A DNA stretch of 64,000 bases from the human T2T-CHM13v2.0 reference genome, Homo sapiens. Shown here piece by piece: positions 31,827 through 64,000 of this stretch (position 1 is its first letter; every line of letters begins with the position of its first letter). Location of the stretch: positions 28,256,001-28,320,000 of the forward strand of contig CP086569.2 of the NCBI GenBank assembly GCA_009914755.4, written 5' to 3'. The position numbers were made by a program, and so were the translations under genes. The notes under the pieces are model-generated. The model was not told the origin of the DNA, did not search any database, and saw only the letters and a program-made list of their open reading frames with translations.

Positions 31827-34800
31827 CTCGAATAGAATGGACACGAATGCTCAAATTGAATGGACTCGAATGGAATGGAAACGAAAGGAATGTCATCGAA
31901 TGGAATTGAATCGATTGGTATGAAATCGCATAGAATGGAGTGGAATCAAATGGAATTGAATGGAAAGGAAAGGAAGCGAATGGACTGAAATGAAATGGAA
32001 TGGAATTGAATGGAAAGTAAAGCAATGGAATAGAATGGAACGAAATTTCACGGAATGGAATCAAACTGAATGGAATCAAATCAATGGAATATAATCAAAT
32101 GGAATGGAAAGGAATTGAATGGAGTAGATGGGATTGGATGGGATTGGAATGAAATGTACTGGAAAGGACTCGAATTTCATGAAACGGAATGGAATGAATT
32201 GGAACGGAATGGACTCGAATGGAATGGAATGTCATGGAATGGCATCAAATGGAATGGAATCGAATGCAATGGAATGCTATGGAATGGAATGGAATGCATT
32301 GGAATGGAATGTCCTCTAATGGAATGGATTCGAGTGGAATGGAATCGAATATAATGGAGTCGAATGAAATATAATTGAAAGGAATGGGATCGAATACAAT
32401 GGAATATACTGGAATGTAATGTAATGAACTCGAATGTAATTGACTGGAATGGAATGTACATGAATGGAATGTAATCGAATGGAAAGTAATCCAATGGAAT
32501 AGAATCTAATGCAAGAAAATCGACTCAGATAGAGTAGAATGTAATGGAATGGAGTGCAGTGCAATGGAATGGAATGGAATGGAATGCAATGGAATGGAAT
32601 GGAATGGGATGGAATGGTATGGAATGGATAGTAATGGACTGGAGTGAAATGGACTGGAAAGGAATGGACTCAAATTGAAAGGGCTCGAAAGGAATGGAGT
32701 CAAATGGAATGGTCTGGAATGGAATGAACACGAATGTAATGCAATCCAATAGAATGGAATCGAATGGCATGGAATATAAAGAAATGGAATCGAAGAGAAT
32801 GGAAACAAACGGAATGGAATTGAATGGAATGGAATTGAATGGAATGGGAACGAATGGAGTGAAATTGTATGCAGTAGAAGAGAAAAGAGTGGAATGCAAG
32901 CGAAAGGAAAGGAATGGATTGGAATGGAATGGAATTCATGGGAATGGAAGGGAATGTAGTGTAATGGACAGGCCTGGAATAAAGTGGAATGCTACGGTCT
33001 CGAATGGAATAAAAATGTATGGAATGGAATGCAAAGAAACGGAATCGAATGTCATAGAATGTAATGGAATGCAAAAAAATGGACTCCAAAATCATTGACT
33101 GGAAAGGCTGGGTGTCGAAAGGAATTGACTCCAATGGAATGGAATCGAATGGAATGGAAGTGAATAGAATCGAACTAAATCGAATGGAATGGAATTGATA
33201 GGAACGGAATGGAAAGGAATGAAATGATTTGGCATGGAATGGAATCGAATGGCATCGAATGGAATGGAACGGAATGCAATGCAATGGAATGTATTAGAAT
33301 GTAATGAACTTTAATGGAATGTACTCGAATGGATTTGACTGGAATGGAATGTTCTGGAAGTGAATGGACTCCAATGGAATGGATTCAAAAGGAATGGAAT
33401 CGTACGGAATGGAATCTAATGGAATGGAATTAAATGGAAATGAATCAAATTGAATAGCACGGAATTGAATTGAATGGAATCGAATGCAATGGAATCTAAT
33501 GAAACGGAAAGGAAAGGAATGGAATGGAATGGAATGGGCTGGAATGGAAAGGAATCGAAACGAATGGAATGGAATCGAACTGAAGAGACTGGAATGGAAT
33601 GCACTGGAATGGAAGGGAGTGTAATGGAAGGTTCTCGAAATAAATGGAATCGAATGGAATGGAATTGAATGGAACGGAATAGTGTCGAATGGAATTGAAT
33701 GGAATGGAATGGACTAGAGTGAAATGGAATCGAACCACAAGGAATGGACAGGAATAGAATGGTCTCGAATTGAATGGAATCTTATGGAATGGCATCAAAC
33801 GGAATGGAATGGACAGCCACGGAATGGAATGCACTCGAATGCAATGGAGTCGAACCTAATGGACTGGAATAGAATGGACTCGACTGGTACGGACTCCAAT
33901 GGAATGGAATCGAATGGAAGGGAATCGAACGGAATGGACTCGAAGGGAAAAGACTGCAATGGAAAGGTCTCGAATGGAATGGAAATTAATGGAATGGAAT
34001 GGAATCGAATGAAATGGAGTCAAAAGGAATGGAATCGAATGGCAAGAAATCGAATGTAATGGAATCGCAAGGAATTGATGTGAACGGAACGGAATGGAAT
34101 GGAATCCAAAGAAATGGAATAGAATGGAATGGAATCGAATGGAAAGAACTCGAATGGAAATCACTCGAATAGAATGCAATTTAATAAAATAGGATGAAAT
34201 GTAATTGAATGGAATGGAAAGGAATCGAAACGAAAGGAATGGAGACAGATGGAATGGAATGGAACAGAGAGCAATGGTATAGAATGGAATGGAATCATCT
34301 GGAATGGAATTGAATGGAATGGAATAATATGAAATGGAATGGAATGGAATGGAATGCCCTTGAATTAAATGGACTGGAATGGAATGGACTCGAACAGAGT
34401 GGAATGGAATGTGTTGAGATAGAATGGAATGGACTCCTTTGGAATGGTGTAGTATGCAATGCAATCGACTGGCAGGGAATCAAAAGGAATGTAATCGAAT
34501 GGATTGGACTGGAATGTAATGGACTCGAATAGATTGGAAACGGAATGCAAAGGAATGGAATGGAATAGTATGGAATGGAATGGAAAGGAATGGAGTGGAA
34601 TAGACTAGAGTGGAATGGAATGGACTCGAAAGCAATGGACTGGAATGGAACTTTCTTGAATGGACTGGAATCAAACGGAATGGAATGCAATGCAATCAAA
34701 TGGCATGGAATAAAATAGAATGAAAGAGAATCAAATGGAATTGAATCGAATGCAATCGAATGGATTGGAAAGGAATAGAATGGAATGGAATGGAATTGAC

Positions 34801-35345
34801 TCAAATGGAATGGACTAGAATGGAATGGATTCGAATGGAAGGCAAAGGAATGGAATCTATTGGAATGGACAGCAATGGAATGGAAAGGAAGGGATTGGAA
34901 TGGACTCGAATGGAATGGACTGCAATAGAAAGGATTCGAATGGAATGAAAAAGAATTGAATGGAATAGAACAGAATGGAATCAAATCGAATGAAATGGAA
35001 TGGAATAGAAAGGAATGGAATGAAATGGAATGGAAAGGATTCGAATGGAATGCAATCGAATGGAATGGAATCGAACGGAATGGAATAAAATGGAAGAAAA
35101 CTGGCAAGAAATGGAATCGAAATGAATGGAGTGTTATGGAACGGACTCCAAAGGAATTGAATGTAATAGAATGGAGTGGAGTGGACTCGAATATAATGGA
35201 CTGGAATGGAATGAAATCACATGGAATGGGAACGAATGGAATGGAATGGAAAGGAATGGAATCGAATGGAAAGGAATCGAATGGAAGGGAATGAAATTGA
35301 ATCAACAGGAATGGAAGGGAATAGAATAGACGGTAATGGAATGGA
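31827..35345 (+). repeat. HOR unit 10 (3519 bp)
   Basis: Anchor recurrence. 'cgaaataaatgg' (SRNKW) and the variants shared with units 6 and 12 (LHH, TTPFQ, 'ggtgtag', RHYSV). Confidence 0.9.
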
Positions 35346-38300
35346 CTCGAATAGAATGGACACGAATGCTCAAATTGAATGGACTCGAATGGAATGGAAA
35401 CGAAAGGAATGTCATCGAATGGAATTGAATCGATTGGAATGAAATCGCATAGAATGGAGTGGAATCAAATGGAATTGAATCGAAAGGAAAGGAAGCGAAT
35501 GGACTGAAATGAAATGGAATGGAATTGAATGGAAAGTAAAGCAATGGAATAGAATGGAACGAAATTTCACGGAATGGAATCAAACTGAATGGAATCAAAT
35601 CAATGGAATATAATCAAATGGAATGGAAAGGAATTGAATGGAGTAGATGGGATTGGATGGGATTGGAATGAAATGTACTGGAAAGGACTCGAATTTCATG
35701 AAACGGAATGGAATGAATTGGAACGGAATGGACTCGAATGGAATGGAATGTCATGGAATGGCATCAAATGGAAGGGCATCAAATGGAATGGAATCGAATG
35801 CAATGGAATGCTATGGAATGGAATGGAATGCATTGGAATGGAATGTCCTCTAATGGAATGGATTCGAGTGGAATGGAATCGAATATAATGGAGTCGAATG
35901 AAATGGAATTGAAAGGAATGGGATCGAATACAATGGAATATACTGGAATGTAATGTAATGAACTCGAATGTAATTGACTGGAATGGAATGTACATGAATG
36001 GAATGTAATCGAATGGAAAGTAATCCAATGGAATAGAATCTAATGCAATAAAATCGACTCAGATAGAGTAGAATGTAATGGAATGGAGTGCAGTGCAATG
36101 GAATGGAATGGAATGCAATGGAATGGAATGGAATGGGATGGAATGGTATGGAATGGATAGTAATGGACTGGAGTGAAATGGACTGGAAAGGAATGGACTC
36201 AAATTAAAAGGGCTCGAAAGGAATGGAGTCAAATGGAATGGTCTGGAATGGAATGAACACGAATGTAATGCAATCCAATAGAATGGAATCGAATGGCATG
36301 GAATATAAAGAAATGCAATCGAAGAGAATGGAAACAAACGGAATGGAATTGAATGGAATGGAATTGAATGGAATGGGAACGAATGGAGTGAAATTGTATG
36401 CAGTAGAAGAGAATAGAATGGAATGCAAGCGAAAGGAAAGGAATGGATTGGAATGGAATGGAATTCATTGGAATGGAAGGGAATGTAGTGTAATGGACAG
36501 GCCTGGAATAAAGTGGAATGCTACGGTCTCGAATGGAATAAAAATGTATGGAATGGAATGCAAAGAAACGGAATCGAATGTCATAGAATGTAATGGAATG
36601 CAAAAAAATGGACTCCAAAATCATTGACTGGAAAGGCTGGGTGTCGAAAGGAATTGACTCCAATGGAATGGAATCGAATGGAATGGAAGTGAATAGAATC
36701 GAACTAAATCGAATGGAATGGAATTGATAGGAACGGAATGGAAAGGAATGAAATGATTTAGCATGGAATGGAATCGAATGGCATCGAATGGAATGGAATG
36801 GAATGCAATGCAATGGAATGTATTAGAATGTAATGAACTTTAATGGAATGTACTCGAATGAATTCGACTGGAATGGAATGTTCTGGAAGTGAATGGACTC
36901 CAACGGAATGGATTGAAAAGGAATGGAATCGTACGGAATGGAATCTAATGGAATGGAATTAAATGGAAATGAATCAAATTGAATAGCACGGAATTGAATT
37001 GAATGGAATCGAATGCAATGGAATCTAATGAAACGGAAAGGAAAGGAATGGAATGGAATGGAATGGGCTGGAATGGAAAGGAATCGAAACGAATGGAATG
37101 GAATCGAACTGAAGAGACTGGAATGGAATGCACTGGAATGGAAGGGAGTGTAATGGAAGGTTCTCGAAAAAAATGGAATCGAATGGAATGGAATTGAATG
37201 GAACGGAATAGAGTCGAATGGAATTGAATGGAATGGAATGGACTAGAGTGAAATGGAATCGAACCACAAGGAATGGACAGGAATAGAATGGTCTCGAATT
37301 GAATGGAATCGTATGGAATGGCATCAAACGGAATGGAATGGACAGCCACGGAATGGAATGCACTCGAATGCAATGGAGTCGAAACTAATGGACTGGAATA
37401 GAATGGACTCGACTGGTACGGACTCCAATGGAATGGAATCGAATGGAAGGGAATCGAACGGAATGGACTCGAAGGGAAAAGACTGCAATGGAAAGGTCTC
37501 GAATGGAATGGAAATTAATGGAATGGAATGGAATCGAATGAAATGGAGTCAAAAGGAATGGAATCGAATGGCAAGAAATCGAATGTAATGGAATCGCAAG
37601 GAATTCATGTGAACGGAACGGAATGGAATGGAATCCAAAGAAATGGAATAGAATGGAATGGAATCGAATGGAAAGAACTCGAATGGAAATCACTCGAATA
37701 GAATGCAATTTAATAAAATAGGATGAAATGTAATTGAATGGAATGGAAAGGAATCGAAACGAAAGGAATGGAGACAGATGGAATGGAATGGAACAGAGAG
37801 CAATGGTATAGAATGGAATGGAATCATCTGGAATGGAATTGAATGGAATGGAATAATATGAAATGGAATGGAATGGAATGGAATGCCCTTGAATTAAATG
37901 GACTGGAATGGAATGGACTCGAACAGAGTGGAATGGAATGTGTTGAGATAGAATGGAATGGACTCCTTTGGAATGGTCTAGTATGCAATGCAATCGACTG
38001 GCAGGGAATCAAAAGGAATGTAATCGAATGGATTGGACTGGAATGCAATGGACTCGAATAGATTGGAAACGGAATGCAAGGGAATGGAATGGAATAGTAT
38101 GGAATGGAATGGAAAGGAATGGAGTGGAATAGACTAGAGTGGAATGGAATGGACTCGAAAGCAATGGACTGGAATGGAACTTTCTTGAATGGACTGGAAT
38201 CAAACGGAATGGAATGCAATGCAATCAAATGGCATGGAATAAAATAGAATGAAAGAGAATCAAATGGAATTGAATCGAATGCAATCGAATGGATTGGAAA

Positions 38301-38874
38301 GGAATAGAATGGAATGGAATGGAATTGACTCAAATGGAATGGACTAGAATGGAATGGATTCGAATGGAAGGCAAAGGAATGGAATCTATTGGAATGGACA
38401 GCAATGGAATGGAAAGGAAGGGATTGGAATGGACTCGAATGGAATGGACTGCAATAGAAAGGATTCGAATGGAATGAAAAAGAATTGAATGGAATAGAAC
38501 AGAATGGAATCAAATCGAATGAAATGGAATGGAATAGAAAGGAATGGAATGAAATGGAATGGAAAGGATTCGAATGGAATGCAATCGAATGGAATGGAAT
38601 CGAACGGAATGGAATAAAATGGAAGAAAACTGGCAAGAAATGGAATCGAAATGAATGGAGTGTTATGGAACGGACTCCAAAGGAATTGAATGTAATAGAA
38701 TGGAGTGGAGTGGACTCGAATATAATGGACTGGAATGGAATGAAATCACATGGAATGGGAACGAATGGAATGGAATGGAAAGGAATGGAATCGAATGGAA
38801 AGGAATCGAATGGAAGGGAATGAAATTGAATCAACAGGAATGGAAGGGAATAGAATAGACGGTAATGGAATGGA
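35346..38874 (+). repeat. HOR unit 11 (3529 bp)
   Basis: Anchor recurrence. The 15-bp duplication is present with a T-to-G change ('ggcatcaaatggaagggcatcaaatgg', ~35760), shared with unit 13. First unit carrying 'gcaataaaatcg' (~36043). Confidence 0.9.
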
Positions 38875-41800
38875 CTCGAATAGAATGGACACGAATGCTC
38901 AAATTGAATGGACTCGAATGGAATGGAAACGAAAGGAATGTCATCGAATGGAATTGAATCGATTGGAATGAAATCGCATAGAATGGAGTGGAATCAAATG
39001 GAATTGAATCGAAAGGAAAGGAAGCGAATGGACTGAAATGAAATGGAATGGAATTGAATGGAAAGTAAAGCAATGGAATAGAATGGAACGAAATTTCACG
39101 GAATGGAATCAAACTGAATGGAATCAAATCAATGGAATATAATCAAATGGAATGGAAAGGAATTGAATGGAGTAGATGGGATTGGATGGGATTGGAATGA
39201 AATGTACTGGAAAGGACTCGAATTTCATGAAACGGAATGGAATGAATTGGAACGGAATGGACTCGAATGGAATGGAATGTCATGGAATGGCATCAAATGG
39301 AATGGAATCGAATGCAATGGAATGCTATGGAATGGAATGGAATGCATTGGAATGGAATGTCCTCTAATGGAATGGATTCGAGTGGAATGGAATCGAATAT
39401 AATGGAGTCGAATGAAATGGAATTGAAAGGAATGGGATCGAATACAATGGAATATACTGGAATGTAATGTAATGAACTCGAATGTAATTGACTGGAATGG
39501 AATGTACATGAATGGAATGTAATCGAATGGAAAGTAATCCAATGGAATAGAATCTAATGCAATAAAATCGACTCAGATAGAGTAGAATGTAATGGAATGG
39601 AGTGCAGTGCAATGGAATGGAATGGAATGGAATGCAATGGAATGGAATGGAATGGGATGGAATGGTATGGAATGGATAGTAATGGACTGGAGTGAAATGG
39701 ACTGGAAAGGAATGGACTCAAATTGAAAGGGCTCGAAAGGAATGGAGTCAAATGGAATGGTCTGGAATGGAATGAACACGAATGTAATGCAATCCAATAG
39801 AATGGAATCGAATGGCATGGAATATAAAGAAATGGAATCGAAGAGAATGGAAACAAACGGAATGGAATTGAATGGAATGGAATTGAATGGAATGGGAACG
39901 AATGGAGTGAAATTGTATGCAGTAGAAGAGAAAAGAGTGGAATGCAAGCGAAAGGAAAGGAATGGATTGGAATGGAATGGAATTCATGGGAATGGAAGGG
40001 AATGTAGTGTAATGGACAGGCCTGGAATAAAGTGGAATGCTACGGTCTCGAATGGAATAAAAATGTATGGAATGGAATGCAAAGAAACGGAATCGAATGT
40101 CATAGAATGTAATGGAATGCAAAAAAATGGACTCCAAAATCATTGACTGGAAAGGCTGGGTGTCGAAAGGAATTGACTCCAATGGAATGGAATCGAATGG
40201 AATGGAAGTGAATAGAATCGAACTAAATCGAATGGAATGGAATTGATAGGAACGGAATGGAAAGGAATGAAATGATTTGGCTTGGAATGGAATCGAATGG
40301 CATCGAATGGAATGGAACGGAATGCAATGCAATGGAATGTATTAGAATGTAATGAACTTTAATGGAATGTACTCGAATGGATTCGACTGGAATGGAATGT
40401 TCTGGAAGTGAATGGACTCCAATGGAATGGATTCAAAAGGAATGGAATCGTACGGAATGGAATCTAATGGAATGGAATTAAATGGAAATGAATCAAATTG
40501 AATAGCACGGAATTGAATTGAATGGAATCGAATGCAATGGAATCTAATGAAACGGAAAGGAAAGGAATGGAATGGAATGGAATGGGCTGGAATGGAAAGG
40601 AATCGAAACGAATGGAATGGAATCGAACTGAAGAGACTGGAATGGAATGCACTGGAATGGAAGGGAGTGTAATGGAAGGTTCTCGAAATAAATGGAATCG
40701 AATGGAATGGAATTGAATGGAACGGAATAGTGTCGAATGGAATTGAATGGAATGGAATGGACTAGAGTGAAATGGAATCGAACCACAAGGAATGGACAGG
40801 AATAGAATGGTCTCGAATTGAATGGAATCGTATGGAATGGCATCAAACGGAATGGAATGGACAGCCACGGAATGGAATGCACTCGAATGCAATGGAGTCG
40901 AACCTAATGGACTGGAATAGAATGGACTCGACTGGTACGGACTCCAATGGAATGGAATCGAATGGAAGGGAATCGAACGGAATGGACTCGAAGGGAAAAG
41001 ACTGCAATGGAAAGGTCTCGAATGGAATGGAAATTAATGGAATGGAATGGAATCGAATGAAATGGAGTCAAAAGGAATGGAATCGAATGGCAAGAAATCG
41101 AATGTAATGGAATCGCAAGGAATTGATGTGAACGGAACGGAATGGAATGGAATCCAAAGAAATGGAATAGAATGGAATGGAATCGAATGGAAAGAACTCG
41201 AATGGAAATCACTCGAATAGAATGCAATTTAATAAAATAGGATGAAATGTAATTGAATGGAATGGAAAGGAATCGAAACGAAAGGAATGGAGACAGATGG
41301 AATGGAATGGAACAGAGAGCAATGGTATAGAATGGAATGGAATCATCTGGAATGGAATTGAATGGAATGGAATAATATGAAATGGAATGGAATGGAATGG
41401 AATGCCCTTGAATTAAATGGACTGGAATGGAATGGACTCGAACAGAGTGGAATGGAATGTGTTGAGATAGAATGGAATGGACTCCTTTGGAATGGTGTAG
41501 TATGCAATGCAATCGACTGGCAGGGAATCAAAAGGAATGTAATCGAATGGATTGGACTGGAATGTAATGGACTCGAATAGATTGGAAACGGAATGCAAAG
41601 GAATGGAATGGAATAGTATGGAATGGAATGGAAAGGAATGGAGTGGAATAGACTAGAGTGGAATGGAATGGACTCGAAAGCAATGGACTGGAATGGAACT
41701 TTCTTGAATGGACTGGAATCAAACGGAATGGAATGCAATGCAATCAAATGGCATGGAATAAAATAGAATGAAAGAGAATCAAATGGAATTGAATCGAATG

Positions 41801-42393
41801 CAATCGAATGGATTGGAAAGGAATAGAATGGAATGGAATGGAATTGACTCAAATGGAATGGACTAGAATGGAATGGATTCGAATGGAAGGCAAAGGAATG
41901 GAATCTATTGGAATGGACAGCAATGGAATGGAAAGGAAGGGATTGGAATGGACTCGAATGGAATGGACTGCAATAGAAAGGATTCGAATGGAATGAAAAA
42001 GAATTGAATGGAATAGAACAGAATGGAATCAAATCGAATGAAATGGAATGGAATAGAAAGGAATGGAATGAAATGGAATGGAAAGGATTCGAATGGAATG
42101 CAATCGAATGGAATGGAATCGAACGGAATGGAATAAAATGGAAGAAAACTGGCAAGAAATGGAATCGAAATGAATGGAGTGTTATGGAACGGACTCCAAA
42201 GGAATTGAATGTAATAGAATGGAGTGGAGTGGACTCGAATATAATGGACTGGAATGGAATGAAATCACATGGAATGGGAACGAATGGAATGGAATGGAAA
42301 GGAATGGAATCGAATGGAAAGGAATCGAATGGAAGGGAATGAAATTGAATCAACAGGAATGGAAGGGAATAGAATAGACGGTAATGGAATGGA
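38875..42393 (+). repeat. HOR unit 12 (3519 bp)
   Basis: Anchor recurrence. Variant set matches unit 10 (and unit 6). No 15-bp duplication. Confidence 0.9.
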
Positions 42394-52400: not shown

Positions 52401-52988
52401 GAATGGATTGGAAAGGAATAGAATGGAATGGAATGGAATTGACTCAAATGGAATGGACTAGAATGGAATGGATTCGAATGGAAGGCAAAGGAATGGAATC
52501 TATTGGAATGGACAGCAATGGAATGGAAAGGAAGGGATTGGAATGGACTCGAATGGAATGGACTGCAATAGAAAGGATTCGAATGGAATGAAAAAGAATT
52601 GAATGGAATAGAACAGAATGGAATCAAATCGAATGAAATGGAATGGAATAGAAAGGAATGGAATGAAATGGAATGGAAAGGATTCGAATGGAATGCAATC
52701 GAATGGAATGGAATCGAACGGAATGGAATAAAATGGAAGAAAACTGGCAAGAAATGGAATCGAAATGAATGGAGTGTTATGGAACGGACTCAAAAGGAAT
52801 TGAATGTAATAGAATGGAGTGGAGTGGACTCGAATATAATGGACTGGAATGGAATGAAATCACATGGAATGGGAACGAATGGAATGGAATGGAAAGGAAT
52901 GGAATCCAATGGAAAGGAATCGAATGGAAGGGAATGAAATTGAATCAACAGGAATGGAAGGGAATAGAATAGACGGTAATGGAATGGA
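49471..52988 (+). repeat. HOR unit 15 (3518 bp)
   Basis: Anchor recurrence. Has the 15-bp duplication, a 15-bp deletion ('ggaattgaatggaat' lost, ~50470), a 1-bp deletion 'gtcgaaagaattgactcc' (~50761) and 'catataatgtaatgg' (~50699). All of these are shared with unit 17. Confidence 0.9.
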
Positions 52989-55900
52989 CTCGAATAGAAT
53001 GGACACGAATGCTCAAATTGAATGGACTCGAATGGAATGGAAACGAAAGGAATGTCATCGAATGGAATTGAATCGATTGGAATGAAATCGCATAGAATGG
53101 AGTGGAATCAAATGGAATTGAATCGAAAGGAAAGGAAGCGAATGGACTGAAATGAAATGGAATGGAATTGAATGGAAAGTAAAGCAATGGAATAGAATGG
53201 AACGAAATTTCACGGAATGGAATCAAACTGAATGGAATCAAATCAATGGAATATAATCAAACGGAATGGAAAGGAATTGAATGGAGTAGATGGGATTGGA
53301 TGGGATTGGAATGAAATGTACTGGAAAGGACTCGAATTTCATGAAACGGAATGGAATGAATTGGAACGGAATGGACTCGAATGGAATGGAATGTCATGGA
53401 ATGGCATCAAATGGAATGGCATCAAATGGAATGGAATCGAATGCAATGGAATGCTATGGAATGGAATGGAATGCATTGGAATGGAATGTCCTCTAATGGA
53501 ATGGATTCGAGTGGAATGGAATCGAATATAATGGAGTCGAATGAAATGGAATTGAAAGGAATGGGATCGAATACAATGGAATATACTGGAATGTAATGTA
53601 ATGAACTCCAATGTAATTGACTGGAATGGAATGTACATGAATGGAATGTAATCGAATGGAAAGTAATCCAATGGAATAGAATCTAATGCAATAAAATCGA
53701 CTCAGATAGAGTAGAATGTAATGGAATGGAGTGCAGTGCAATGGAATGGAATGGAATGGAATGCAATGGAATGGAATGGAATGGGATGGAATGGTATGGA
53801 ATGGATAGTAATGGACTGGAGTGAAATGGACTGGAAAGGAATGGACTCAAATTGAAAGGGCTCGAAAGGAATGGAGTCAAATGGAATGGTCTGGAATGGA
53901 ATGAACAAGAATGTAATGCAATCCAATAGAATGGAATCGAATGGCATGGAATATAAAGAAATGGAATCGAAGAGAATGGAAACAAACGGAATGGAATTGA
54001 ATGGAATGGAATTGAATGGAATGGGAACGAATGGAGTGAAATTGTATGCAGTAGAAGAGAATAGAATGGAATGCAAGCGAAAGGAAAGGAATGGATTGGA
54101 ATGGAATGGAATTCATTGGAATGGAAGGGAATGTAGTGTAATGGACAGGCCTGGAATAAAGTGGAATGCTACGGTCTCGAATGGAATAAAAATGTATGGA
54201 ATGGAATGCAAAGAAACGGAATCGAATGTCATAGAATGTAATGGAATGCAAAAAAATGGACTCCAAAATCATTGACTGGAAAGGCTGGGTGTCGAAAGGA
54301 ATTGACTCCAATGGAATGGAATCGAATGGAATGGAAGTGAATAGAATCGAACTAAATCGAATGGAATGGAATTGATAGGAACGGAATGGAAAGGAATGAA
54401 ATGATTTAGCATGGAATGGAATCGAATGGCATCGAATGGAATGGAATGGAATGCAACGCAATGGAATGTATTAGAATGTAATGAACTTTAATGGAATGTA
54501 CTCGAATGGATTCGACTGGAATGGAATGTTCTGGAAGTGAATGGACTCCAATGGAATGGATTGAAAAGGAATGGAATCGTACGGAATGGAATCTAATGGA
54601 ATGGAATTAAATGGAAATGAATGAAATTGAATAGCACGGAATTGAATTGAATGGAATCGAATGCAATGGAATCTAATGAAACGGAAAGGAAAGGAATGGA
54701 ATGGAATGGAATGGGCTGGAATGGAAAGGAATCGAAACGAATGGAATGGAATCGAACTGAAGAGACTGGAATGGAATGCACTGGAATGGAAGGGAGTGTA
54801 ATGGAAGGTTCTCGAAATAAATGGAATCGAATGGAATGGAATTGAATGGAACGGAATAGAGTCGAATGGAATTGAATGGAATGGAATGGACTAGAGTGAA
54901 ATGGAATCGAACCACAAGGAATGGACAGGAATAGAATGGTCTCGAATTGAATGGAATCGTATGGAATGGCATCAAACGGAATGGAATGGACAGCCACGGA
55001 ATGGAATGCACTCGAATGCAATGGAGTCGAACCTAATGGACTGGAATAGAATGGACTCGACTGGTACGGACTCCAATGGAATGGAATCGAATGGAAGGGA
55101 ATCGAACGGAATGGACTCGAAGGGAAAAGACTGCAATGGAAAGGTCTCGAATGGAATGGAAATTAATGGAATGGAATGGAATCGAATGAAATGGAGTCAA
55201 AAGGAATGGAATCGAATGGCAAGAAATCGAATGTAATGGAATCGCAAGGAATTGATGTGAACGGAACGGAATGGAATGGAATCCAAAGAAATGGAATAGA
55301 ATGGAATGGAATCGAATGGAAAGAACTCGAATGGAAATCACTCGAATAGAATGCAATTTAATAAAATAGGATGAAATGTAATTGAATGGAATGGAAAGGA
55401 ATCGAAACGAAAGGAATGGAGACAGATGGAATGGAATGGAACAGAGAGCAATGGTATAGAATGGAATGGAATCATCTGGAATGGAATTGAATGGAATGGA
55501 ATAATATGAAATGGAATGGAATGGAATGGAATGCCCTTGAATTAAATGGACTGGAATGGAATGGACTCGAACAGAGTGGAATGGAAAGTGTTGAGATAGA
55601 ATGGAATGGACTGCTTTGGAATGGTCTAGTATGCAATGCAATGGACTGGCAGGGAATCAAAAGGAATGTAATCGAATGGATTGGACTGGAATGCAATGGA
55701 CTGGAATAGATTGGAAACCGAATGCAAAGGAATGGAATGGAATAGTATGGAATGGAATGGAAAGGAATGGAGTGGAATAGACTAGAGTGGAATGGAATGG
55801 ACTCGAAAGGAATGGACTGGAATGGAACTTTCTTGAATGGACTGGAATCAAACGGAATGGAATGCAATGCAATCAAATGGCATGGAATAAAATAGAATGA

Positions 55901-56522
55901 AAGAGAATCAAATGGAATTGAATTGAATGCAATCGAATGGATTGGAAAGGAATAGAATGGAATGGAATGGAATTGACTCAAATGGAATGGACTAGAATGG
56001 AATGGATTCGAATGGAAGGCAAAGGAATGGAATCTATTGGAATGGACAGCAATGGAATGGAAAGGAAGGGATTGGAATGGACTCGAATGGAATGGACTGC
56101 AATAGAAAGGATTCGAATGGAATGAAAAAGAATTGAATGGAATAGAACAGAATGGAATCAAATCGAATGAAATGGAATGGAATAGAAAGGAATGGAATGA
56201 AATGGAATGGAAAGGATTCGAATGGAATGCAATCGAATGGAATGGAATCGAACGGAATGGAATAAAATGGAAGAAAACTGGCAAGAAATGGAATCGAAAT
56301 GAATGGAGTGTTATGGAACGGACTCCAAAGGAATTGAATGTAATAGAATGGAGTGGAGTGGACTCGAATATAATGGACTGGAATGGAATGAAATCACATG
56401 GAATGGGAACGAATGGAATGGAATGGAAAGGAATGGAATCGAATGGAAAGGAATCGAATGGAAGGGAATGAAATTGAATCAACAGGAATGGAAGGGAATA
56501 GAATAGACGGTAATGGAATGGA
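52989..56522 (+). repeat. HOR unit 16 (3534 bp)
   Basis: Anchor recurrence. 15-bp duplication; variant set matches units 14 and 18. Confidence 0.9.
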
Positions 56523-59500
56523 CTCGAATAGAATGGACACGAATGCTCAAATTGAATGGACTCGAATGGAATGGAAACGAAAGGAATGTCATCGAATGGA
56601 ATTGAATCGATTGGAATGAAATCGCATAGAATGGAGTGGAATCAAATGGAATTGAATCGAAAGGAAAGGAAGCGAATGGACTGAAATGAAATGGAATGGA
56701 ATTGAATGGAAAGTAAAGCAATGGAATAGAATGGAACGAAATTTCACGGAATGGAATCAAACTGAATGGAATCAAATCAATGGAATATAATCAAATGGAA
56801 TGGAAAGGAATTGAATGGAGTAGATGGGATTGGATGGGATTGGAATGAAATGTACTGGAAAGGACTCGAATTTCATGAAACGGAATGGAATGAATTGGAA
56901 CGGAATGGACTCGAATGGAATGGAATGTCATGGAATGGCATCAAATGGAATGGCATCAAATGGAATGGAATCGAATGCAATGGAATACTATGGAATGGAA
57001 TGGAATGCATTGGAATGGAATGTCCTCTAATGGAATGGATTCGAGTGGAATGGAATCGAATATAATGGAGTCGAATGAAATGAAATTGAAAGGAATGGGA
57101 TCGAATACAATGGAATATACTGGAATGTAATGTAATGAACTCGAATGTAATTGACTGGAATGGAATGTACATGAATGGAATGTAATCGAATGGAAAGTAA
57201 TCCAATGGAATAGAATCTAATGCAATAAAATCGACTCAGATAGAGTAGAATGTAATGGAATGGAGTGCAGTGCAATGGAATGGAATGGAATGGAATGCAA
57301 TGGAATGGAATGGAATGGGATGGAATGGTATGGAATGGATAGTAATGGACTGGAGGGAAATGGACTGGAAAGGAATGGACTCAAATTGAAAGGGCTCGAA
57401 AGGAATGGAGTCAAATGGAATGGTCTGGAATGGAATGAACACGAATGTAATGCAATCCAATAGAATGGAATCGAATGGCATGGAATATAAAGAAATGGAA
57501 TCGAAGAGAATGGAAACAAACGGAATGGAATTGAATGGAATGGGAACGAATGGAGTGAAATTGTATGCAGTAGAAGAGAATAGAATGGAATGCAAGCGAA
57601 AGGAAAGGAATGGATTGGAATGGAATGGAATTCATTGGAATGGAAGGGAATGTAGTGTAATGGACAGGCCTGGAATAAAGTGGAATGCTACGGTCTCGAA
57701 TGGAATAAAAATGTATGGAATGGAATGCAAAGAAACGGAATCGAATGTCATATAATGTAATGGAATGCAAAATAATGGACTCCAAAATCATTGACTGGAA
57801 AGGCTGGGTGTCGAAAGAATTGACTCCAATGGAATGGAATCGAATGGAATGGAAGTGAATAGAATCGAACTAAATCGAATGGAATGGAATTGATAGGAAC
57901 GGAATGGAAAGGAATGAAATGATTTGGCATGGAATGGAATCGAATGGCATCGAATGGAATGGAATGGAATGCAATGCAATGGAATGTATTAGAATGTAAT
58001 GAACTTTAATGGAATGTACTCGAATGGATTCGACTGGAATGGAATGTTCTGGAAGTGAATGGACTCCAATGGAATGGATTGAAAAGGAATGGAATCGTAC
58101 GGAATGGAATCTAATGGAATGGAATTAAATGGAAATGAATGAAATTGAATAGCACGGAATTGAATTGAATGGAATCGAATGCAATGGAATCTAATGAAAC
58201 GGAAAGGAAAGGAATGGAATGGAATGGAATGGGCTGGAATGGAAAGGAATCGAAACGAATGGAATGGAATCGAACTGAAGAGACTGGAATGGAATGCACT
58301 GGAATGGAAGGGAGTGTAATGGAAGGTTCTCGAAAAAAATGGAATCGAATGGAATGCAATTGAATGGAACGGAATAGAGTCGAATGGAATTGAATGGAAT
58401 GGAATGGACTAGAGTGAAATGGAATCGAACCACAAGGAATGGACAGGAATAGAATGGTCTCGAATTGAATGGAATCGTATGGAATGGCATCAAACGGAAT
58501 GGAATGGACAGCCACGGAATGGAATGCACTCGAATGCAATGGAGTCGAAACTAATGGGCTGGAATAGAATGGACTCGACTGGTACGGACTCCAATGGAAT
58601 GGAATCGAATGGAAGGGAATCGAACGGAATGGACTCGAAGGGAAAAGACTGCAATGGAAAGGTCTCGAATGGAATGGAAATTAATGGAATGGAATGGAAT
58701 CGAATGAAATGGAGTCAAAAGGAATGGAATCGAATGGCAAGAAATCGAATGTAATGGAATCGCAAGGAATTGATGTGAACGGAACGGAATGGAATGGAAT
58801 CCAAAGAAATGGAATAGAATGGAATGGAATCGAATGGAAAGAACTCGAATGGAAATCACTCGAATAGAATGCAATTTAATAAAATAGGATGAAATGTAAT
58901 GGAATGGAATGGAAAGGAATCGAAACGAAAGGAATGGAGACAGATGGAATGGAATGGAACAGAGAGCAATGGTATAGAATGGAATGGAATCATCTGGAAT
59001 GGAATTGAATGGAATGGAATAATATGAAATGGAATGGAATGGAATGGAATGCCCTTGAATTAAATGGACTGGAATGGAATGGACTCGAACAGAGTGGAAT
59101 GGAATGTGTTGAGATAGAATGGAATGGACTCCTTTGGAATGGTCTAGTATGCAATGCAATCGACTGGCAGGGAATCAAAAGGAATGTAATCGAATGGATT
59201 GGACTGGAATGCAATGGACTCGAATAGATTGGAAACGGAATGCAAAGGAATGGAATGGAATAGTATGGAATGGAATGGAAAGGAATGGAGTGGAATAGAC
59301 TAGAGTGGAATGGAATGGACTCGAAAGCAATGGACTGGAATGGAACTTTCTTGAATGGACTGGAATCAAACGGAATGGAATGCAATGCAATCAAATGGCA
59401 TGGAATAAAATAGAATGAAAGAGAATCAAATGGAATTGAATCGAATGCAATCGAATGGATTGGAAAGGAATAGAATGGAATGGAATGGAATTGACTCAAA

Positions 59501-60040
59501 TGGAATGGACTAGAATGGAATGGATTCGAATGGAAGGCAAAGGAATGGAATCTATTGGAATGGACAGCAATGGAATGGAAAGGAAGGGATTGGAATGGAC
59601 TCGAATGGAATGGACTGCAATAGAAAGGATTCGAATGGAATGAAAAAGAATTGAATGGAATAGAACAGAATGGAATCAAATCGAATGAAATGGAATGGAA
59701 TAGAAAGGAATGGAATGAAATGGAATGGAAAGGATTCGAATGGAATGCAATCGAATGGAATGGAATCGAACGGAATGGAATAAAATGGAAGCAAACTGGC
59801 AAGAAATGGAATCGAAATGAATGGAGTGTTATGGAACGGACTCCAAAGGAATTGAATGTAATAGAATGGAGTGGAGTGGACTCGAATATAATGGACTGGA
59901 ATGGAATGAAATCACATGGAATGGGAACGAATGGAATGGAATGGAAAGGAATGGAATCGAATGGAAAGGAATCGAATGGAAGGGAATGAAATTGAATCAA
60001 CAGGAATGGAAGGGAATAGAATAGACGGTAATGGAATGGA
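56523..60040 (+). repeat. HOR unit 17 (3518 bp)
   Basis: Anchor recurrence. Indel and SNV set identical to unit 15. Confidence 0.9.
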
Positions 60041-63000
60041 CTCGAATAGAATGGACACGAATGCTCAAATTGAATGGACTCGAATGGAATGGAAACGAAA
60101 GGAATGTCATCGAATGGAATTGAATCGATTGGAATGAAATGGCATAGAATGGAGTGGAATCAAATGGAATTGAATCGAAAGGAAAGGAAGCGAATGGACT
60201 GAAATGAAATGGAATGGAATTGAATGGAAAGTAAAGCAATGGAATAGAATGGAACGAAATTTCACGGAATGGAATCAAACTGAATGGAATCAAATCAATG
60301 GAATATAATCAAATGGAATGGAAAGGAATTGAATGGAGTAGATGGGATTGGATGGGATTGGAATGAAATGTACTGGAAAGGACTCGAATTTCATGAAACG
60401 GAATGGAATGAATTGGAACGGAATGGACTCGAATGGAATGGAATGTCATGGAATGGCATCAAATGGAATGGCATCAAATGGAATGGAATCGAATGCAATG
60501 GAATGCTATGGAATGGAATGGAATGCATTAGAATGGAATGTCCTCTAATGGAATGGATTCGAGTGGAATGGAATCGAATATAATGGAGTCGAATGAAATG
60601 GAATTGAAAGGAATGGGATCGAATACAATGGAATATACTGGAATGTAATGTAATGAACTCGAATGTAATTGACTGGAATGGAATGTACATGAATGGAATG
60701 TAATCGAATGGAAAGTAATCCAATGGAATAGAATCTAATGCAATAAAATCGACTCAGATAGAGTAGAATGTAATGGAATGGAGTGCAGTACAATGGAATG
60801 GAATGGAATGGAATGCAATGGAATGGAATGGAATGGGATGGAATGGTATGGAATGGATAGTAATGGACTGGAGTGAAATGGACTGGAAAGGAATGGACTC
60901 AAATTGAAAGGGCTCGAAAGGAATGGAGTCAAATGGAATGGTCTGGAATGGAATGAACACGAATGTAATGCAATCCAATAGAATGGAATCGAATGGCATG
61001 GAATATAAAGAAATGGAATCGAAGAGAATGGAAACAAACGGAATGGAATTGAATGGAATGGGAACGAATGGAGTGAAATTGTATGCAGTAGAAGAGAATA
61101 GAATGGAATGCAAGCGAAAGGAAAGGAATGGATTGGAATGGAATGGAATTCATTGGAATGGAAGGGAATGTAGTGTAATGGACAGGCCTGGAATAAAGTG
61201 GAATGCTACGGTCTCGAATGGAATAAAAATGTATGGAATGGAATGCAAAGAAACGGAATCGAATGTCATAGAATGTAATGGAATGCAAAAAAATGGACTC
61301 CAAAATCATTGACTGGAAAGGCTGGGTGTCGAAAGGAATTGACTCCAATGGAATGGAATCGAATGGAATGGAAGTGAATAGAATCGAACTAAATCGAATG
61401 GAATGGAATTGATAGGAACGGAATGGAAAGGAATGAAATGATTTAGCATGGAATGGAATCGAATGGCATCGAATGGAATGGAATGGAATGCAACGCAATG
61501 GAATGTATTAGAATGTAATGAACTTTAATGGAATGTACTCGAATGGATTCGACTGGAATGGAATGTTCTGGAAGTGAATGGACTCCAATGGAATGGATTG
61601 AAAAGGAATGGAATCGTACGGAATGGAATCTAATGGAATGGAATTAAATGGAAATGAATGAAATTGAATAGCACAGAATTGAATTGAATGGAATCGAATG
61701 CAATGGAATCTAATGAAACGGAAAGGAAAGGAATGGAATGGAATGGAATGGGCTGGAATGGAAAGGAATCGAAACGAATGGAATGGAATCGAACTGAAGA
61801 GACTGGAATGGAATGCACTGGAATGGAAGGGAGTGTAATGGAAGGTTCTCGAAATAAATGGAATCGAATGGAATGGAATTGAATGGAACGGAATAGAGTC
61901 GAATGGAATTGAATGGAATGGAATGGACTAGAGTGAAATGGAATCGAACCACAAGGAATGGACAGGAATAGAATGGTCTCGAATTGAATGGAATCGTATG
62001 GAATGGCATCAAACGGAATGGAATGGACAGCCACGGAATGGAATGCACTCGAATGCAATGGAGTCGAACCTAATGGACTGGAATAGAATGGACTCGACTG
62101 GTACGGACTCCAATGGAATGGAATCGAATGGAAGGGAATCGAACGGAATGGACTCGAAGGGAAAAGACTGCAATGGAAAGGTCTCGAATGGAATGGAAAT
62201 TAATGGAATGGAATGGAATCGAATGAAATGGAGTCAAAAGGAATGGAATCGAATGGCAAGAAATCGAATGTAATGGAATCGCAAGGAATTGATGTGAACG
62301 GAACGGAATGGAATGGAATCCAAAGAAATGGAATAGAATGGAATGGAATCGAATGGAAAGAACTCGAATGGAAATCACTCGAATAGAATGCAATTTAATA
62401 AAATAGGATGAAATGTAATTGAATGGAATGGAAAGGAATCGAAACGAAAGGAATGGAGACAGATGGAATGGAATGGAACAGAGAGCAATGGTATAGAATG
62501 GAATGGAATCATCTGGAATGGAATTGAATGGAATGGAATAATATGAAATGGAATGGAATGGAATGGAATGCCCTTGAATTAAATGGACTGGAATGGAATG
62601 GACTCGAACAGAGTGGAATGGAAAGTGTTGAGATAGAATGGAATGGACTGCTTTGGAATGGTCTAGTATGCAATGCAATCGACTGGCAGGGAATCAAAAG
62701 GAATGTAATCGAATGGATTGGACTGGAATGCAATGGACTCGAATAGATTGGAAACGGAATGCAAAGGAATGGAATGGAATAGTATGGAATGGAATGGAAA
62801 GGAATGGAGTGGAATAGACTAGAGTGGAATGGAATGGACTCGAAAGGAATGGACTGGAATGGAACTTTCTTGAATGGACTGGAATCAAACGGAATGGAAT
62901 GCAATGCAATCAAATGGCATGGAATAAAATAGAATGAAAGAGAATCAAATGGAATTGAATTGAATGCAATCGAATGGATTGGAAAGGAATAGAATGGAAT

Positions 63001-63559
63001 GGAATGGAATTGACTCAAATGGAATGGACTAGAATGGAATGGATTCGAATGGAAGGCAAAGGAATGGAATCTATTGGAATGGACAGCAATGGAATGGAAA
63101 GGAAGGGATTGGAATGGACTCGAATGGAATGGACTGCAATAGAAAGGATTCGAATGGAATGAAAAAGAATTGAATGGAATAGAACAGAATGGAATCAAAT
63201 CGAATGAAATGGAATGGAATAGAAAGGAATGGAATGAAATGGAATGGAAAGGATTCGAATGGAATGCAATCGAATGGAATGGAATCGAACGGAATGGAAT
63301 AAAATGGAAGAAAACTGGCAAGAAATGGAATCGAAATGAATGGAGTGTTATGGAACGGACTCCAAAGGAATTGAATGTAATAGAATGGAGTGGAGTGGAC
63401 TCGAATATAATGGACTGGAATGGAATGAAATCACATGGAATGGGAACGAATGGAATGGAATGGAAAGGAATGGAATCGAATGGAAAGGAATCGAATGGAA
63501 GGGAATGAAATTGAATCAACAGGAATGGAAGGGAATAGAATAGACGGTAATGGAATGGA
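60041..63559 (+). repeat. HOR unit 18 (3519 bp)
   Basis: Anchor recurrence. Has the 15-bp duplication and the 15-bp deletion (MELNGMGTNG), but without the 1-bp deletion of units 15 and 17. Shares 'cgaaataaatgg' and 'ggactgctttgg' with units 14 and 16. Confidence 0.9.
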
Positions 63560-64000
63560 CTCGAATAGAATGGACACGAATGCTCAAATTGAATGGACTC
63601 GAATGGAATGGAAACGAAAGGAATGTCATCGAATGGAATTGAATCGATTGGAATGAAATCGCATAGAATGGAGTGGAATCAAATGGAATTGAATCGAAAG
63701 GAAAGGAAGCGAATGGACTGAAATGAAATGGAATGGAATTGAATGGAAAGTAAAGCAATGGAATAGAATGGAACGAAATTTCACGGAATGGAATCAAACT
63801 GAATGGAATCAAATCAATGGAATATAATCAAATGGAATGGAAAGGAATTGAATGGAGTAGATGGGATTGGATGGGATTGGAATGAAATGTACTGGAAAGG
63901 ACTCGAATTTCATGAAACGGAATGGAATGAATTGGAACGGAATGGACTCGAATGGAATGGAATGTCATGGAATGGCATCAAATGGAATGGCATCAAATGG
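63560..64000 (+). repeat. HOR unit 19 (partial, truncated by window end)
   Basis: The anchor 'ctcgaatagaatggacacgaatgctc' restarts at 63560. The 15-bp duplication is present at the window end ('ggcatcaaatggaatggcatcaaatgg'). Confidence 0.85.

What the first reader, a model, noticed from the sequence alone, without database searches (positions are those of the whole stretch)
31827..63559. A ~7.05 kb two-unit super-repeat is superimposed on the 3.5 kb HOR (units 10-18)
Diagnostic variants alternate strictly between units. 'cgaaataaatgg' (SRNKW) appears in units 10, 12, 14, 16 and 18, while 'cgaaaaaaatgg' (SRKKW) appears in 11, 13, 15 and 17. Units 10 and 12 share at least four private variants (LHH, TTPFQ, 'ggtgtagtatgc', RHYSV). 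Units 11 and 13 share the MEGHQ-type 15-bp duplication. Units 14, 16 and 18 share 'ggactgctttgg', MESVEI, RPFQSSPFH and ISTLSI. Units 15 and 17 share three indels. Same-class unit starts are 7048-7067 bp apart. This implies the array grew by duplication of two-unit blocks, or is being homogenised with a two-unit register.
Basis: seen in the sequence. Interest (0 to 1): 0.55.

Follow-up and report, generated by a model that had tools for sequence, protein, structure and literature searches.

The report
Local two-unit duplications in Y-chromosome satellite DYZ1
The window is the human Y-chromosome satellite DYZ1, and the "7 kb super-repeat" is really two separate neighbouring places where a pair of 3.5 kb units was recently copied in tandem, which is the ordinary way such arrays grow.

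Summary
The window is 18 full units (about 3,519 bp each) of the human Yq12 satellite DYZ1 (HSat3A6). The core observation holds. In units 10-18, units two apart differ by 15.0 events on average, against 22.5 for neighbours (exhaustive permutation p = 7e-4). The signal is not one 4.5-copy super-repeat. It comes from two unrelated blocks.

- **Block 1:** [U10 U11][U12 U13], 99.80 % identical. All 16 informative sites agree.
- **Block 2:** [U14 U15][U16 U17][U18...], about 99.6-99.7 % identical. Later gene-conversion-like patches blur it.

Across the U13/U14 boundary the two-unit similarity disappears: U12-U14 differ by 25 events and U13-U15 by 24. Cross-block same-parity distance (24.7) equals opposite-parity distance (24.4). 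The all-even and all-odd clades each get 0.4 % bootstrap support. Only 1 of 29 informative sites, the A/T site behind SRNKW/SRKKW, alternates over the whole range.

Units 1-9 show no two-unit register, and the youngest event there is a one-unit duplication (U4/U5).

The mechanism is unequal sister-chromatid exchange or replication slippage plus gene conversion. This is already documented for Yq12, including de novo one- and two-unit changes in pedigrees. The finding is ordinary and of low interest.

The parts
1..64000 (.). DYZ1 / HSat3A6 satellite array: 18 full units of about 3,519 bp plus 441 bp of a 19th. The + strand is GGAAT-rich.
   Evidence: TRF finds pentamer-derived periods and a 23-bp anchor once per unit. 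The autocorrelation peak is at 3,519 bp. The HSat3A6-specific 24-mer of Altemose 2014 hits 36 times, against 0 for 13 other subfamily 24-mers. DYZ1 primers recalled from memory hit once per unit, 154 bp apart.
31827..38874 (.). Block 1, copy 1 of a two-unit (7,048 bp) tandem duplication: U10 + U11.
   Evidence: U10-U12 differ by 8 events and U11-U13 by 6, against 20-26 for neighbours. All 16 informative sites of the quartet group {10,12} against {11,13}.
38875..45921 (.). Block 1, copy 2: U12 + U13 (99.80 % identical to copy 1).
   Evidence: There are 14 events in 7,048 bp, including an identical stretch of 2,261 alignment columns spanning the U10/U11 junction. Lag-2 distance rises back to 25-26 events immediately outside the block.
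45922..52988 (.). Block 2, copy 1 of a different two-unit block: U14 + U15.
   Evidence: U14-U16 differ by 16 events and U15-U17 by 15. The clade {14-18} is separate from the clades of U10/12 and U11/13.
52989..60040 (.). Block 2, copy 2: U16 + U17.
   Evidence: U16-U18 differ by 11 events. {16,18} has 73 % bootstrap and {15,17} has 74 %.
60041..64000 (.). Block 2, copy 3, cut by the end of the window: U18 + the first 441 bp of U19.
   Evidence: U18 is closest to U16. The U19 fragment is identical to U17 and one substitution away from U11 and U13-16 and U18.
33641..33641 (+). The single A>T site (alignment column 1969) that alternates over U10-18. The T is also at 40689, 47766, 54818, 61855 and, in U7, at 23014.
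   Evidence: The T is derived and locally restricted: 0 of 38 external DYZ1 matches and 0 of 14 aligned external fragments carry it.
58550..59161 (.). Gene-conversion-like tract in U17. Four markers carry the alleles of U2-type units instead of those of its sister unit U15.
   Evidence: Columns 2183, 2534, 2738 and 2794 read A, G, T, C in U17 and U2 but C, T, A, G in U15.
61040..61040 (.). Position of a 15-bp deletion in even unit U18. The same deletion is in odd units U15 (50470) and U17 (57522) but not in U16.
   Evidence: The deleted segment lies between 11-bp direct repeats GGAATGGAATT. Flanking markers in U18 stay of the even type, so this is a short conversion or recurrent slippage.
10643..17681 (.). 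U4 + U5: a one-unit tandem duplication and the youngest event in the window (99.94 % identical).
   Evidence: They differ by 2 events, with 100 % bootstrap.

Best explanation
The window is a stretch of the human Yq12 satellite DYZ1 (HSat3A6). Its 3.5 kb units are about 99.3 % identical to one another. Against that background, a pair of adjacent units was copied in tandem in two separate episodes.

- **Episode 1:** one duplication gave [U10 U11][U12 U13].
- **Episode 2:** two successive duplications of a different pair gave [U14 U15][U16 U17][U18 U19...].

The likely mechanism is unequal sister-chromatid exchange, or replication slippage / break-induced replication, with the chromatids misaligned by two units. 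This step is inferred. Point mutation and short gene-conversion tracts then partly blurred the copies, especially in the older block 2.

The two blocks abut in the same phase, so one shared derived SNV appears to alternate through all nine units. No 7 kb periodicity spans the two blocks or extends into units 1-9. The structure has no function of its own. It is a footprint of array turnover.

**Shown:** identity of the satellite, the distance matrix, the clades, the block boundaries and the mosaic tracts.

**Inferred:** the exchange mechanism, the order of events and the rough ages. Using the published Yq12 rate, the ages are about 75 ky for block 1 and about 115-165 ky for block 2.
For: **Identity of the satellite**
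- The HSat3A6 24-mer from PMC4022460 hits 36 times; 13 other subfamily 24-mers hit 0 times. GC is 38.75 % and there is 1 CpG per 34 bp. Hallast et al. report 38 % and 1 per 35 bp for DYZ1.
- There is one HaeIII site per unit. DYZ1 primers recalled from memory give a 154-bp amplicon once per unit.

**Two-unit blocks**
- The MSA-based and pairwise distance matrices agree (r = 0.99). Lag-2 distances are 8, 6 | 25, 24 | 16, 15, 11.
- The exhaustive permutation test gives p = 7e-4.
- Quartet informative sites split 16:0:0. In the quintet, 6 of 14 sites fall on the parity split (binomial p = 0.0015) and 4 more support {16,18}.
- Bootstrap support is given.
- Lag-2 identity has a sharp onset and offset at the ends of block 1.

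**Independence of the blocks**
- Cross-block same-parity distance is 24.7 against 24.4 for opposite parity. Only 1 of 29 informative sites splits even from odd.
- The even and odd clades each get 0.4 % bootstrap.

**Conversion overlay**
- The U17 tract and the shared 15-bp deletion in U18.

**Literature**
- T2T-Y attributes Yq12 structure to unequal exchange and detects sister-chromatid exchanges in about 15 % of Strand-seq libraries.
- A pedigree study finds about one de novo SV per Y transmission, spanning 2,416-4,839 bp. That is one or two whole DYZ2 units. The same study reports 29 % of Yq12 de novo SNVs as gene-conversion-like and a rate of 3.86e-7 per bp per generation (PMC12240836).
Against: - Only one haplotype and 64 kb were available. 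Copy-number change therefore cannot be separated directly from homogenisation by long conversion tracts.
- Block 2 clades have only moderate bootstrap support (73-75 %), and 4 of its 14 informative sites conflict with the tree.
- The derived T at column 1969 is absent from external DYZ1 sequences yet present in both blocks and in U7. This hints at some shared local ancestry or conversion between the blocks that the two-independent-events model does not itself explain.
- Assembly correctness in this region cannot be checked without reads.
Confidence: 0.8

Rival explanations
1. This is a single genuine ~7.05 kb super-HOR. One ancestral dimer of an 'even' and an 'odd' unit type was amplified to about 4.5 copies over units 10-18. 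The two types persist through the whole stretch.
For: The A/T site at column 1969 alternates perfectly through U10-18. Its T allele is derived and absent from 38 external DYZ1 matches, so it is probably identical by descent in both blocks. The two blocks are in phase.
Against: - U12-U14 (25) and U13-U15 (24) are at background level, and lag 4 (23.4) shows no signal.
- Cross-block same-parity distance (24.7) is no smaller than opposite-parity distance (24.4).
- The even and odd clades each get 0.4 % bootstrap.
- Only 1 of 29 informative sites supports the split, and column 1559 links odd units of block 1 with even units of block 2.
Confidence: 0.07
2. Homogenisation without duplication. Gene conversion or repeated equal-length exchanges in a two-unit register made alternate units alike, with no change in copy number.
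For: Conversion-like patches are demonstrably present: the U17 tract and the U18 deletion. In Yq12, 29 % of de novo SNVs look like interlocus conversion.
Against: Block 1 is uniformly similar over a full 7,048 bp with sharp edges, and its remaining differences are mostly private singletons. This fits one duplication better than many conversion tracts. The conversion tracts seen here are short (roughly 0.6 kb or less). Whole-unit gains and losses are directly observed in pedigrees.
Confidence: 0.08
3. Chance homoplasy or an artefact. The alternating markers are coincidental recurrent mutations in a low-complexity satellite, or the stretch is an assembly error that falsely repeats reads.
For: Pentamer satellites are prone to recurrent slippage indels; for example, the 15-bp deletion is flanked by 11-bp direct repeats. 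Yq12 is hard to assemble.
Against: - The all-site distances, permutation p = 7e-4, the 16:0:0 partition and 96-100 % bootstrap exclude chance for block 1.
- The copies differ by private substitutions (11 singletons in block 1), so they are not a trivially re-used read.
Confidence: 0.05

Closest known systems
DYZ1 / HSat3A6 arrays of human Yq12, as described in the T2T-Y and 43-Y-assembly papers
   Same: It shares the pentamer-derived ~3.5 kb unit, the subfamily-specific 24-mer, the GC and CpG content, one HaeIII site per unit and >98 % inter-unit identity. Evolution by unequal exchange and gene conversion also matches.
   Different: Units here are 3,519 bp. The commonest published HaeIII fragment is 3,569 bp, and an external contig has 3,559-bp units. 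Most units in the window lack a 15-bp and a 20-bp segment. The papers I read do not describe local two-unit duplicates.
De novo one- and two-unit structural changes in Yq12 satellites seen in the CEPH 1463 pedigree (PMC12240836)
   Same: These are gains or losses of whole satellite units, including two-unit events (up to 4,839 bp, about 2 x 2.4 kb). They occur at about one per Y transmission and are accompanied by conversion-like SNVs.
   Different: The observed events were in DYZ2, not DYZ1. The events inferred here are old, at tens to hundreds of thousands of years on a rough clock, and are fixed in this haplotype.
Nested or 'super' higher-order repeats and HOR-haplotype blocks in alpha-satellite arrays
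   Same: A multi-unit period is superimposed on a basic repeat through local amplification, which gives blocks of closely related copies.
   Different: Alpha-satellite super-HORs usually persist over many copies and define array domains. Here there are only 2 and about 2.5 copies, the two blocks are unrelated, and unit divergence is about 0.2-0.7 % rather than several per cent. This comparison rests on general knowledge and was not tested here.

Membership tests
DYZ1 / HSat3A6 (human Y-specific HSat3 subfamily) | Contains HSat3A6-specific 24-mers and lacks those of other HSat2/3 subfamilies (Altemose 2014, Table 1) | tested here: met
   TCGTTTCGATTCCTTTCCATTCCA occurs 36 times on the - strand (2 per unit). 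The 13 other subfamily 24-mers occur 0 times.
DYZ1 / HSat3A6 (human Y-specific HSat3 subfamily) | Tandem unit of ~3.5-3.6 kb derived from the pentamer GGAAT/CATTC, with one HaeIII site per unit | tested here: met
   The period is 3,519 bp. TRF consensus units are built of AATGG. GGCC occurs once per unit, except that it is lost in U9 and U14 has an extra one.
DYZ1 / HSat3A6 (human Y-specific HSat3 subfamily) | Base composition of ~38 % GC and ~1 CpG per 35 bp (Hallast et al.) | tested here: met
   GC is 38.75 % and there is 1 CpG per 34.3 bp.
DYZ1 / HSat3A6 (human Y-specific HSat3 subfamily) | Physical location in Yq12, alternating with DYZ2 arrays | not testable with these tools
   The window contains no DYZ2 or flanking sequence, and no human genome reference was available to map against.
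True super-HOR (a stable period of two units across an array domain) | Units k and k+2 are more similar than k and k+1 throughout the domain, and units k and k+4 are likewise similar | tested here: not met
   Lag-2 distances are 8, 6, 25, 24, 16, 15, 11. The lag-4 mean (23.4) is no lower than the lag-1 mean (22.5).
True super-HOR (a stable period of two units across an array domain) | Two unit types, each monophyletic across all copies | tested here: not met
   {10,12,14,16,18} and {11,13,15,17} each get 0.4 % bootstrap. U14-18 form their own clade. Only 1 of 29 informative sites fits the split.
Local multi-unit tandem duplication by unequal exchange | A contiguous block of n units is uniformly more similar to the adjacent block of n units, with sharp boundaries and mostly private differences | tested here: met
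   In block 1, the event count drops from 26-33 outside to 8 and 6 inside, then returns to 25-26. Eleven of the 14 differences are singletons. Block 2 meets the criterion less cleanly.
Local multi-unit tandem duplication by unequal exchange | Copy-number polymorphism at the site among related haplotypes | not testable with these tools
   This needs orthologous Yq12 assemblies, and none was accessible.

The most novel reading that the evidence does not exclude
DYZ1 turnover may have a preferred two-unit (~7 kb) exchange register. Dimer duplications would then be systematically over-represented across Yq12, for instance because of an underlying ancient A/B unit alternation or a chromatin-imposed pairing register. 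In that case the two adjacent in-phase dimer blocks, the shared derived T allele, and the mostly alternating A/B clades in units 1-13 (10 runs, p = 0.12) would be local glimpses of an array-wide rule.
Probability: 0.08. Interest if true: 0.4.

Novelty: already known. Interest (0 to 1): 0.12.

Why it matters
It matters little on its own. It is a clean small-scale illustration of how a Y-chromosome satellite array grows: stepwise tandem copying of one or two 3.5 kb units, followed by gene-conversion patching. This matches what T2T assemblies and pedigree sequencing have already reported for Yq12.

The practical lesson is methodological. A single alternating marker, or one variant read on both strands, can make two independent local duplications look like a long-range super-repeat. 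An all-site unit distance matrix settles the question. If whole-array analyses ever showed a systematic two-unit bias, that would say something about the pairing register of sister-chromatid exchange in heterochromatin.

Tried and rejected
- **Ungapped sliding-window comparison.** I compared 250-bp windows at lags of about 3.5, 7, 10.5 and 14 kb. Small indels inflate the mismatches (lag 1: 488; lag 2: 475 in the distal half), so the result is uninformative. I replaced it with MSA-based and pairwise gapped alignments.
- **Literature check of the DYZ1 primers.** Two searches found no paper containing them. The primer match therefore rests on my memory only. Membership rests instead on the published HSat3A6 24-mer.
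- **External long DYZ1 sequence to test for a general 7 kb period.** The metagenome scan found 37 human-contaminant contigs. Most are about one unit long. The pieces held from the two ~55 kb contigs are only 89-97.6 % identical to the window, too noisy or diverged for 0.2-0.7 % differences. I used them only as an outgroup to polarise variants.
- **A/B clade alternation over units 1-13 as evidence of an older dimer.** The exact runs test gives p = 0.12, which is not significant.
- **Coding or RNA function.** Rfam gave no hits. The long - strand ORFs, once per unit with TTG starts, arise because the ATTCC pentamer has no stop codons.
- **Literature search for a described 7 kb or dimeric DYZ1 organisation.** Nothing was found.
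Full report
**What the sequence is**

The window is strongly strand-asymmetric (A 25,981; G 19,374; T 13,218; C 5,427). Its best long-range autocorrelation is at 3,519 bp. Tandem Repeats Finder reports pentamer-derived periods (15, 20, 25, 45, 80 bp) built of AATGG over the whole window. It also reports a 23-bp anchor that recurs 19 times. This defines 18 full units and 441 bp of a 19th. Unit lengths are 3,518-3,604 bp, most often 3,519 bp.

Four lines of evidence identify the array as human Yq12 DYZ1 / HSat3A6.

- The HSat3A6-specific 24-mer in Table 1 of Altemose et al. 2014 (PMC4022460) occurs 36 times, twice per unit. The diagnostic 24-mers of the 13 other HSat2/3 subfamilies occur 0 times.
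- GC content (38.75 %) and CpG density (1 per 34 bp) match the values Hallast et al. give for DYZ1, which are 38 % and 1 per 35 bp.
- There is one HaeIII site per unit.
- Two primers that I recall as the classic DYZ1 pair match once per unit and span 154 bp. I could not confirm these primers in the searchable literature, so this item rests on memory.

Chromosomal location could not be tested. No Rfam family matches. The long minus-strand ORFs that recur once per unit arise because the ATTCC pentamer has no stop codons.

**Checking the observation**

I aligned the 18 units with MAFFT and also compared every pair by gapped global alignment. Each substitution and each indel counted as one event. 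The two distance matrices agree (r = 0.99, maximum difference 3).

| Lag within units 10-18 | Distances | Mean |
|---|---|---|
| 1 (adjacent) | 26, 20, 20, 25, 20, 22, 25, 22 | 22.5 |
| 2 | 8, 6, 25, 24, 16, 15, 11 | 15.0 |
| 3 | 26, 25, 25, 22, 25, 21 | 24.0 |
| 4 | 30, 24, 23, 21, 19 | 23.4 |

I enumerated all 9! orders of these nine units. Only 264 of 362,880 give a lag-2 mean as low as the observed one (p = 7e-4). Only 2,164 (p = 0.006) give as large a lag-1 minus lag-2 difference. That criterion is not met, so the signal is real.

**What the signal consists of**

The lag-2 values fall into three groups. U10-12 and U11-13 are very low. The two pairs that straddle the U13/U14 boundary, U12-14 and U13-15, are at background. 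U14-16, U15-17 and U16-18 are moderately low.

A quarter-unit resolution map shows lag-2 differences dropping abruptly at the start of U10 and returning abruptly after U13. One difference-free stretch of 2,261 alignment columns runs across the U10/U11 junction.

Neighbour-joining with 500 bootstrap replicates gives the following support.

| Clade | Bootstrap |
|---|---|
| {11,13} | 100 % |
| {10,12} | 96 % |
| {14,16,18} | 75 % |
| {15,17} | 74 % |
| {16,18} | 73 % |
| {14-18} | 61 % |
| {10,12,14,16,18} (all even) | 0.4 % |
| {11,13,15,17} (all odd) | 0.4 % |

Informative-site counts agree with the tree.

- In the quartet U10-13, all 16 informative sites group {10,12} against {11,13}.
- In the quintet U14-18, 6 of 14 sites fall on the parity split (binomial p = 0.0015 against ten possible 2|3 splits). 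Four more support {16,18}, and four conflict.
- Between the blocks, same-parity units are no closer than opposite-parity units (24.7 against 24.4).
- Of the 29 informative sites among U10-18, exactly one splits even from odd. This is column 1969, the A/T site behind SRNKW/SRKKW. Column 1559 links the odd units of block 1 with even units of block 2.

The 441-bp start of U19 is identical to U17. This is compatible with block 2 continuing past the window, but it is weak evidence, because the units with the 15-bp segment differ from U19 by only 0-2 substitutions.

The conclusion is that there are two adjacent but unrelated dimer amplifications, [U10 U11]x2 and [U14 U15]x~2.5. There is not one 4.5-copy super-repeat.

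- SRNKW/SRKKW is correct for U10-18. The T allele is also in U7.
- LHH, TTPFQ and 'ggtgtagtatgc' are the same SNV read on two strands. It is also present in U6.
- RHYSV is private to U10/12.
- MESVEI and ISTLSI are one SNV. It is also present in U8 and in odd unit U15.
- 'ggactgctttgg' and RPFQSSPFH are one SNV, private to U14/16/18.
- The 15-bp 'duplication' is present in U2, U11 and U13-18. Only its internal T>G change (the 'MEGHQ type') is private to U11/13.
- Of the three indels of U15/17, the 15-bp segment is shared with six other units. The 15-bp deletion at column 1139 is also in even unit U18. The 1-bp deletion is private.
- Same-class spacings are 7,047-7,077 bp.

**Polarising the variants**

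A scan of metagenome contigs for a 32-mer around column 1969 (A or T allowed) found 37 human-contaminant contigs with 38 matches. All 38 carry A. I aligned 19 external fragments that are at least 97.5 % identical to the window and used them as an outgroup.

- The T at column 1969 is derived and locally restricted.
- The 15-bp segment at column 414 is the state in 6 of 8 external fragments.
- The complete 3,559-bp unit of L031 carries both the 15-bp segment and the 20-bp segment at 761/812. In the fragment alignment, however, only 2-3 of 9 fragments show the 20-bp segment.
- Most units in this window are therefore deletion derivatives for the 15-bp segment. They may also be for the 20-bp segment, but the evidence there is mixed. 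This would account for 3,519 bp against the 3,559-bp external units and the 3,569-bp modal fragment of Hallast et al..
- Several 'class B' markers (columns 2183, 2534) are retained ancestral states.
- U17 carries U2-type alleles at four consecutive markers (window 58550-59161) where its sister unit U15 differs. This is the signature of a conversion tract.
- The 15-bp deletion shared by U15, U17 and U18 lies between 11-bp direct repeats, and the flanking markers in U18 remain of the even type. This indicates either a short conversion or recurrent slippage.

**The rest of the window**

Units 1-9 show no two-unit register: lag-1 mean 22.3, lag-2 mean 20.9, lag-3 mean 17.8. The youngest event in the whole window is a one-unit duplication, U4/U5, with 2 differences.

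Units 1-13 fall into two clades, A = {1,3,6,7,9,10,12} and B = {2,4,5,8,11,13}. Clade A has 87 % bootstrap support and clade B 41 %. They mostly alternate (10 runs), but an exact runs test gives p = 0.12. An older array-wide dimer is therefore not supported.

**Mechanism**

What is shown is the pattern: contiguous two-unit blocks of uniformly raised identity with mostly private differences, overlain by short patches of foreign alleles.

What is inferred is the process: unequal sister-chromatid exchange, or replication slippage / break-induced replication, with a two-unit misalignment, followed by mutation and interlocus gene conversion. The published literature supports this.

- The T2T-Y paper attributes Yq12 structure to unequal exchange. 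It finds sister-chromatid exchanges in Yq12 in about 15 % of Strand-seq libraries.
- Hallast et al. describe expansion and contraction within arrays.
- The CEPH 1463 pedigree study reports about one de novo SV per Y transmission, 2,416-4,839 bp long, each removing or adding one or two whole DYZ2 units. It also reports 29 % of Yq12 de novo SNVs with identical matches elsewhere in Yq12 and a rate of 3.86e-7 per bp per generation (PMC12240836).

Applying that rate as a crude clock at 29 years per generation gives the following ages.

| Comparison | Approximate age |
|---|---|
| U4/U5 | 21 ky |
| Block 1 | 75 ky |
| U16/U18 | 117 ky |
| U14-15 / U16-17 | 165 ky |
| Background adjacent-unit divergence | 240 ky |

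These ages ignore conversion and are order-of-magnitude only.

**Rivals**

- A single true super-HOR is contradicted by the cross-block distances and the clade tests. Its only support is the in-phase T site.
- Pure homogenisation by conversion without copy-number change cannot be excluded from one haplotype. It fits the sharp-edged, uniformly similar 7,048-bp block 1 less well than one duplication does.
- Chance homoplasy is excluded statistically for block 1 and is unlikely for block 2.
- Mis-assembly cannot be tested here, but the copies carry private substitutions.

**Comparison with what is known, and verdict**

The array meets every testable defining feature of DYZ1/HSat3A6. It fails the two defining features of a stable super-HOR: persistence over lag 4 and monophyletic unit types. 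It meets the criteria of local multi-unit tandem duplication.

I found no paper that describes 7 kb dimers in DYZ1 specifically. The phenomenon is nevertheless the expected footprint of a process already documented in this very region. The finding is real but ordinary.

Noticed in passing
window 10643-17681 (U4, U5): Two adjacent units differ by only 2 events (99.94 % identity). This one-unit tandem duplication is younger than either two-unit block.
   Followed up: yes
window 29447-29469 (U9) and 48091 (U14): The single HaeIII (GGCC) site of the unit is lost in U9 by a C>G change, which gives a 7,038-bp HaeIII fragment. U14 has an extra GGCC. In a restriction digest the U9 loss would mimic a 'dimer' band without any dimeric organisation.
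   Followed up: partly
alignment columns 414 and 761/812; e.g. window 35760-35774 (U11), 46683-46702 (U14), 4281-4350 (U2): Units here are mostly 3,519 bp. External DYZ1 copies are 3,559 bp, and the published modal fragment is 3,569 bp. Most window units lack a 15-bp and a 20-bp segment that the external L031 unit, U2 and U14 carry. They therefore look like deletion derivatives, although the external fragments are mixed for the 20-bp segment. This may mark a particular DYZ1 array or sub-lineage.
   Followed up: partly
window 4281-4350 (U2) and 25498-25567 (U8): Two different units each carry a private ~50-70 bp expansion of GGAAT-type pentamers at neighbouring but distinct positions. These appear to be slippage events within the unit.
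   Followed up: no
window 58550-59161 (U17): Four consecutive markers carry U2-type alleles instead of those of the sister unit U15. This is a gene-conversion-like tract of about 0.6 kb or more.
   Followed up: partly
window 50470, 57522, 61040: An identical 15-bp deletion between 11-bp direct repeats (GGAATGGAATT) is present in U15, U17 and U18, which crosses the parity classes. It reflects either a short conversion or recurrent slippage.
   Followed up: partly
window 23014, 33641, 40689, 47766, 54818, 61855: The T allele of the alternating A/T site is absent from all 38 external DYZ1 matches. It is therefore a derived, locally restricted variant shared by U7 and both dimer blocks on different flanking haplotypes. 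How it came to be in both blocks is unexplained.
   Followed up: partly
loci L001-L037, e.g. L007/L008/L020 (contig BNJT01001888.1, 55 kb) and L012/L017 (BNJU01004413.1, 54.6 kb): Human DYZ1 sequence is present in 37 stretches from contigs deposited as metagenome assemblies, including two ~55 kb contigs. This is host-DNA contamination of the kind the T2T-Y paper warned about.
   Followed up: no
window, - strand, e.g. 2469-3479, 6073-7083 and once per unit thereafter: ORFs of up to 336 aa with TTG starts recur once per unit on the minus strand. They arise because the ATTCC pentamer has no stop codons and are not evidence of genes.
   Followed up: partly
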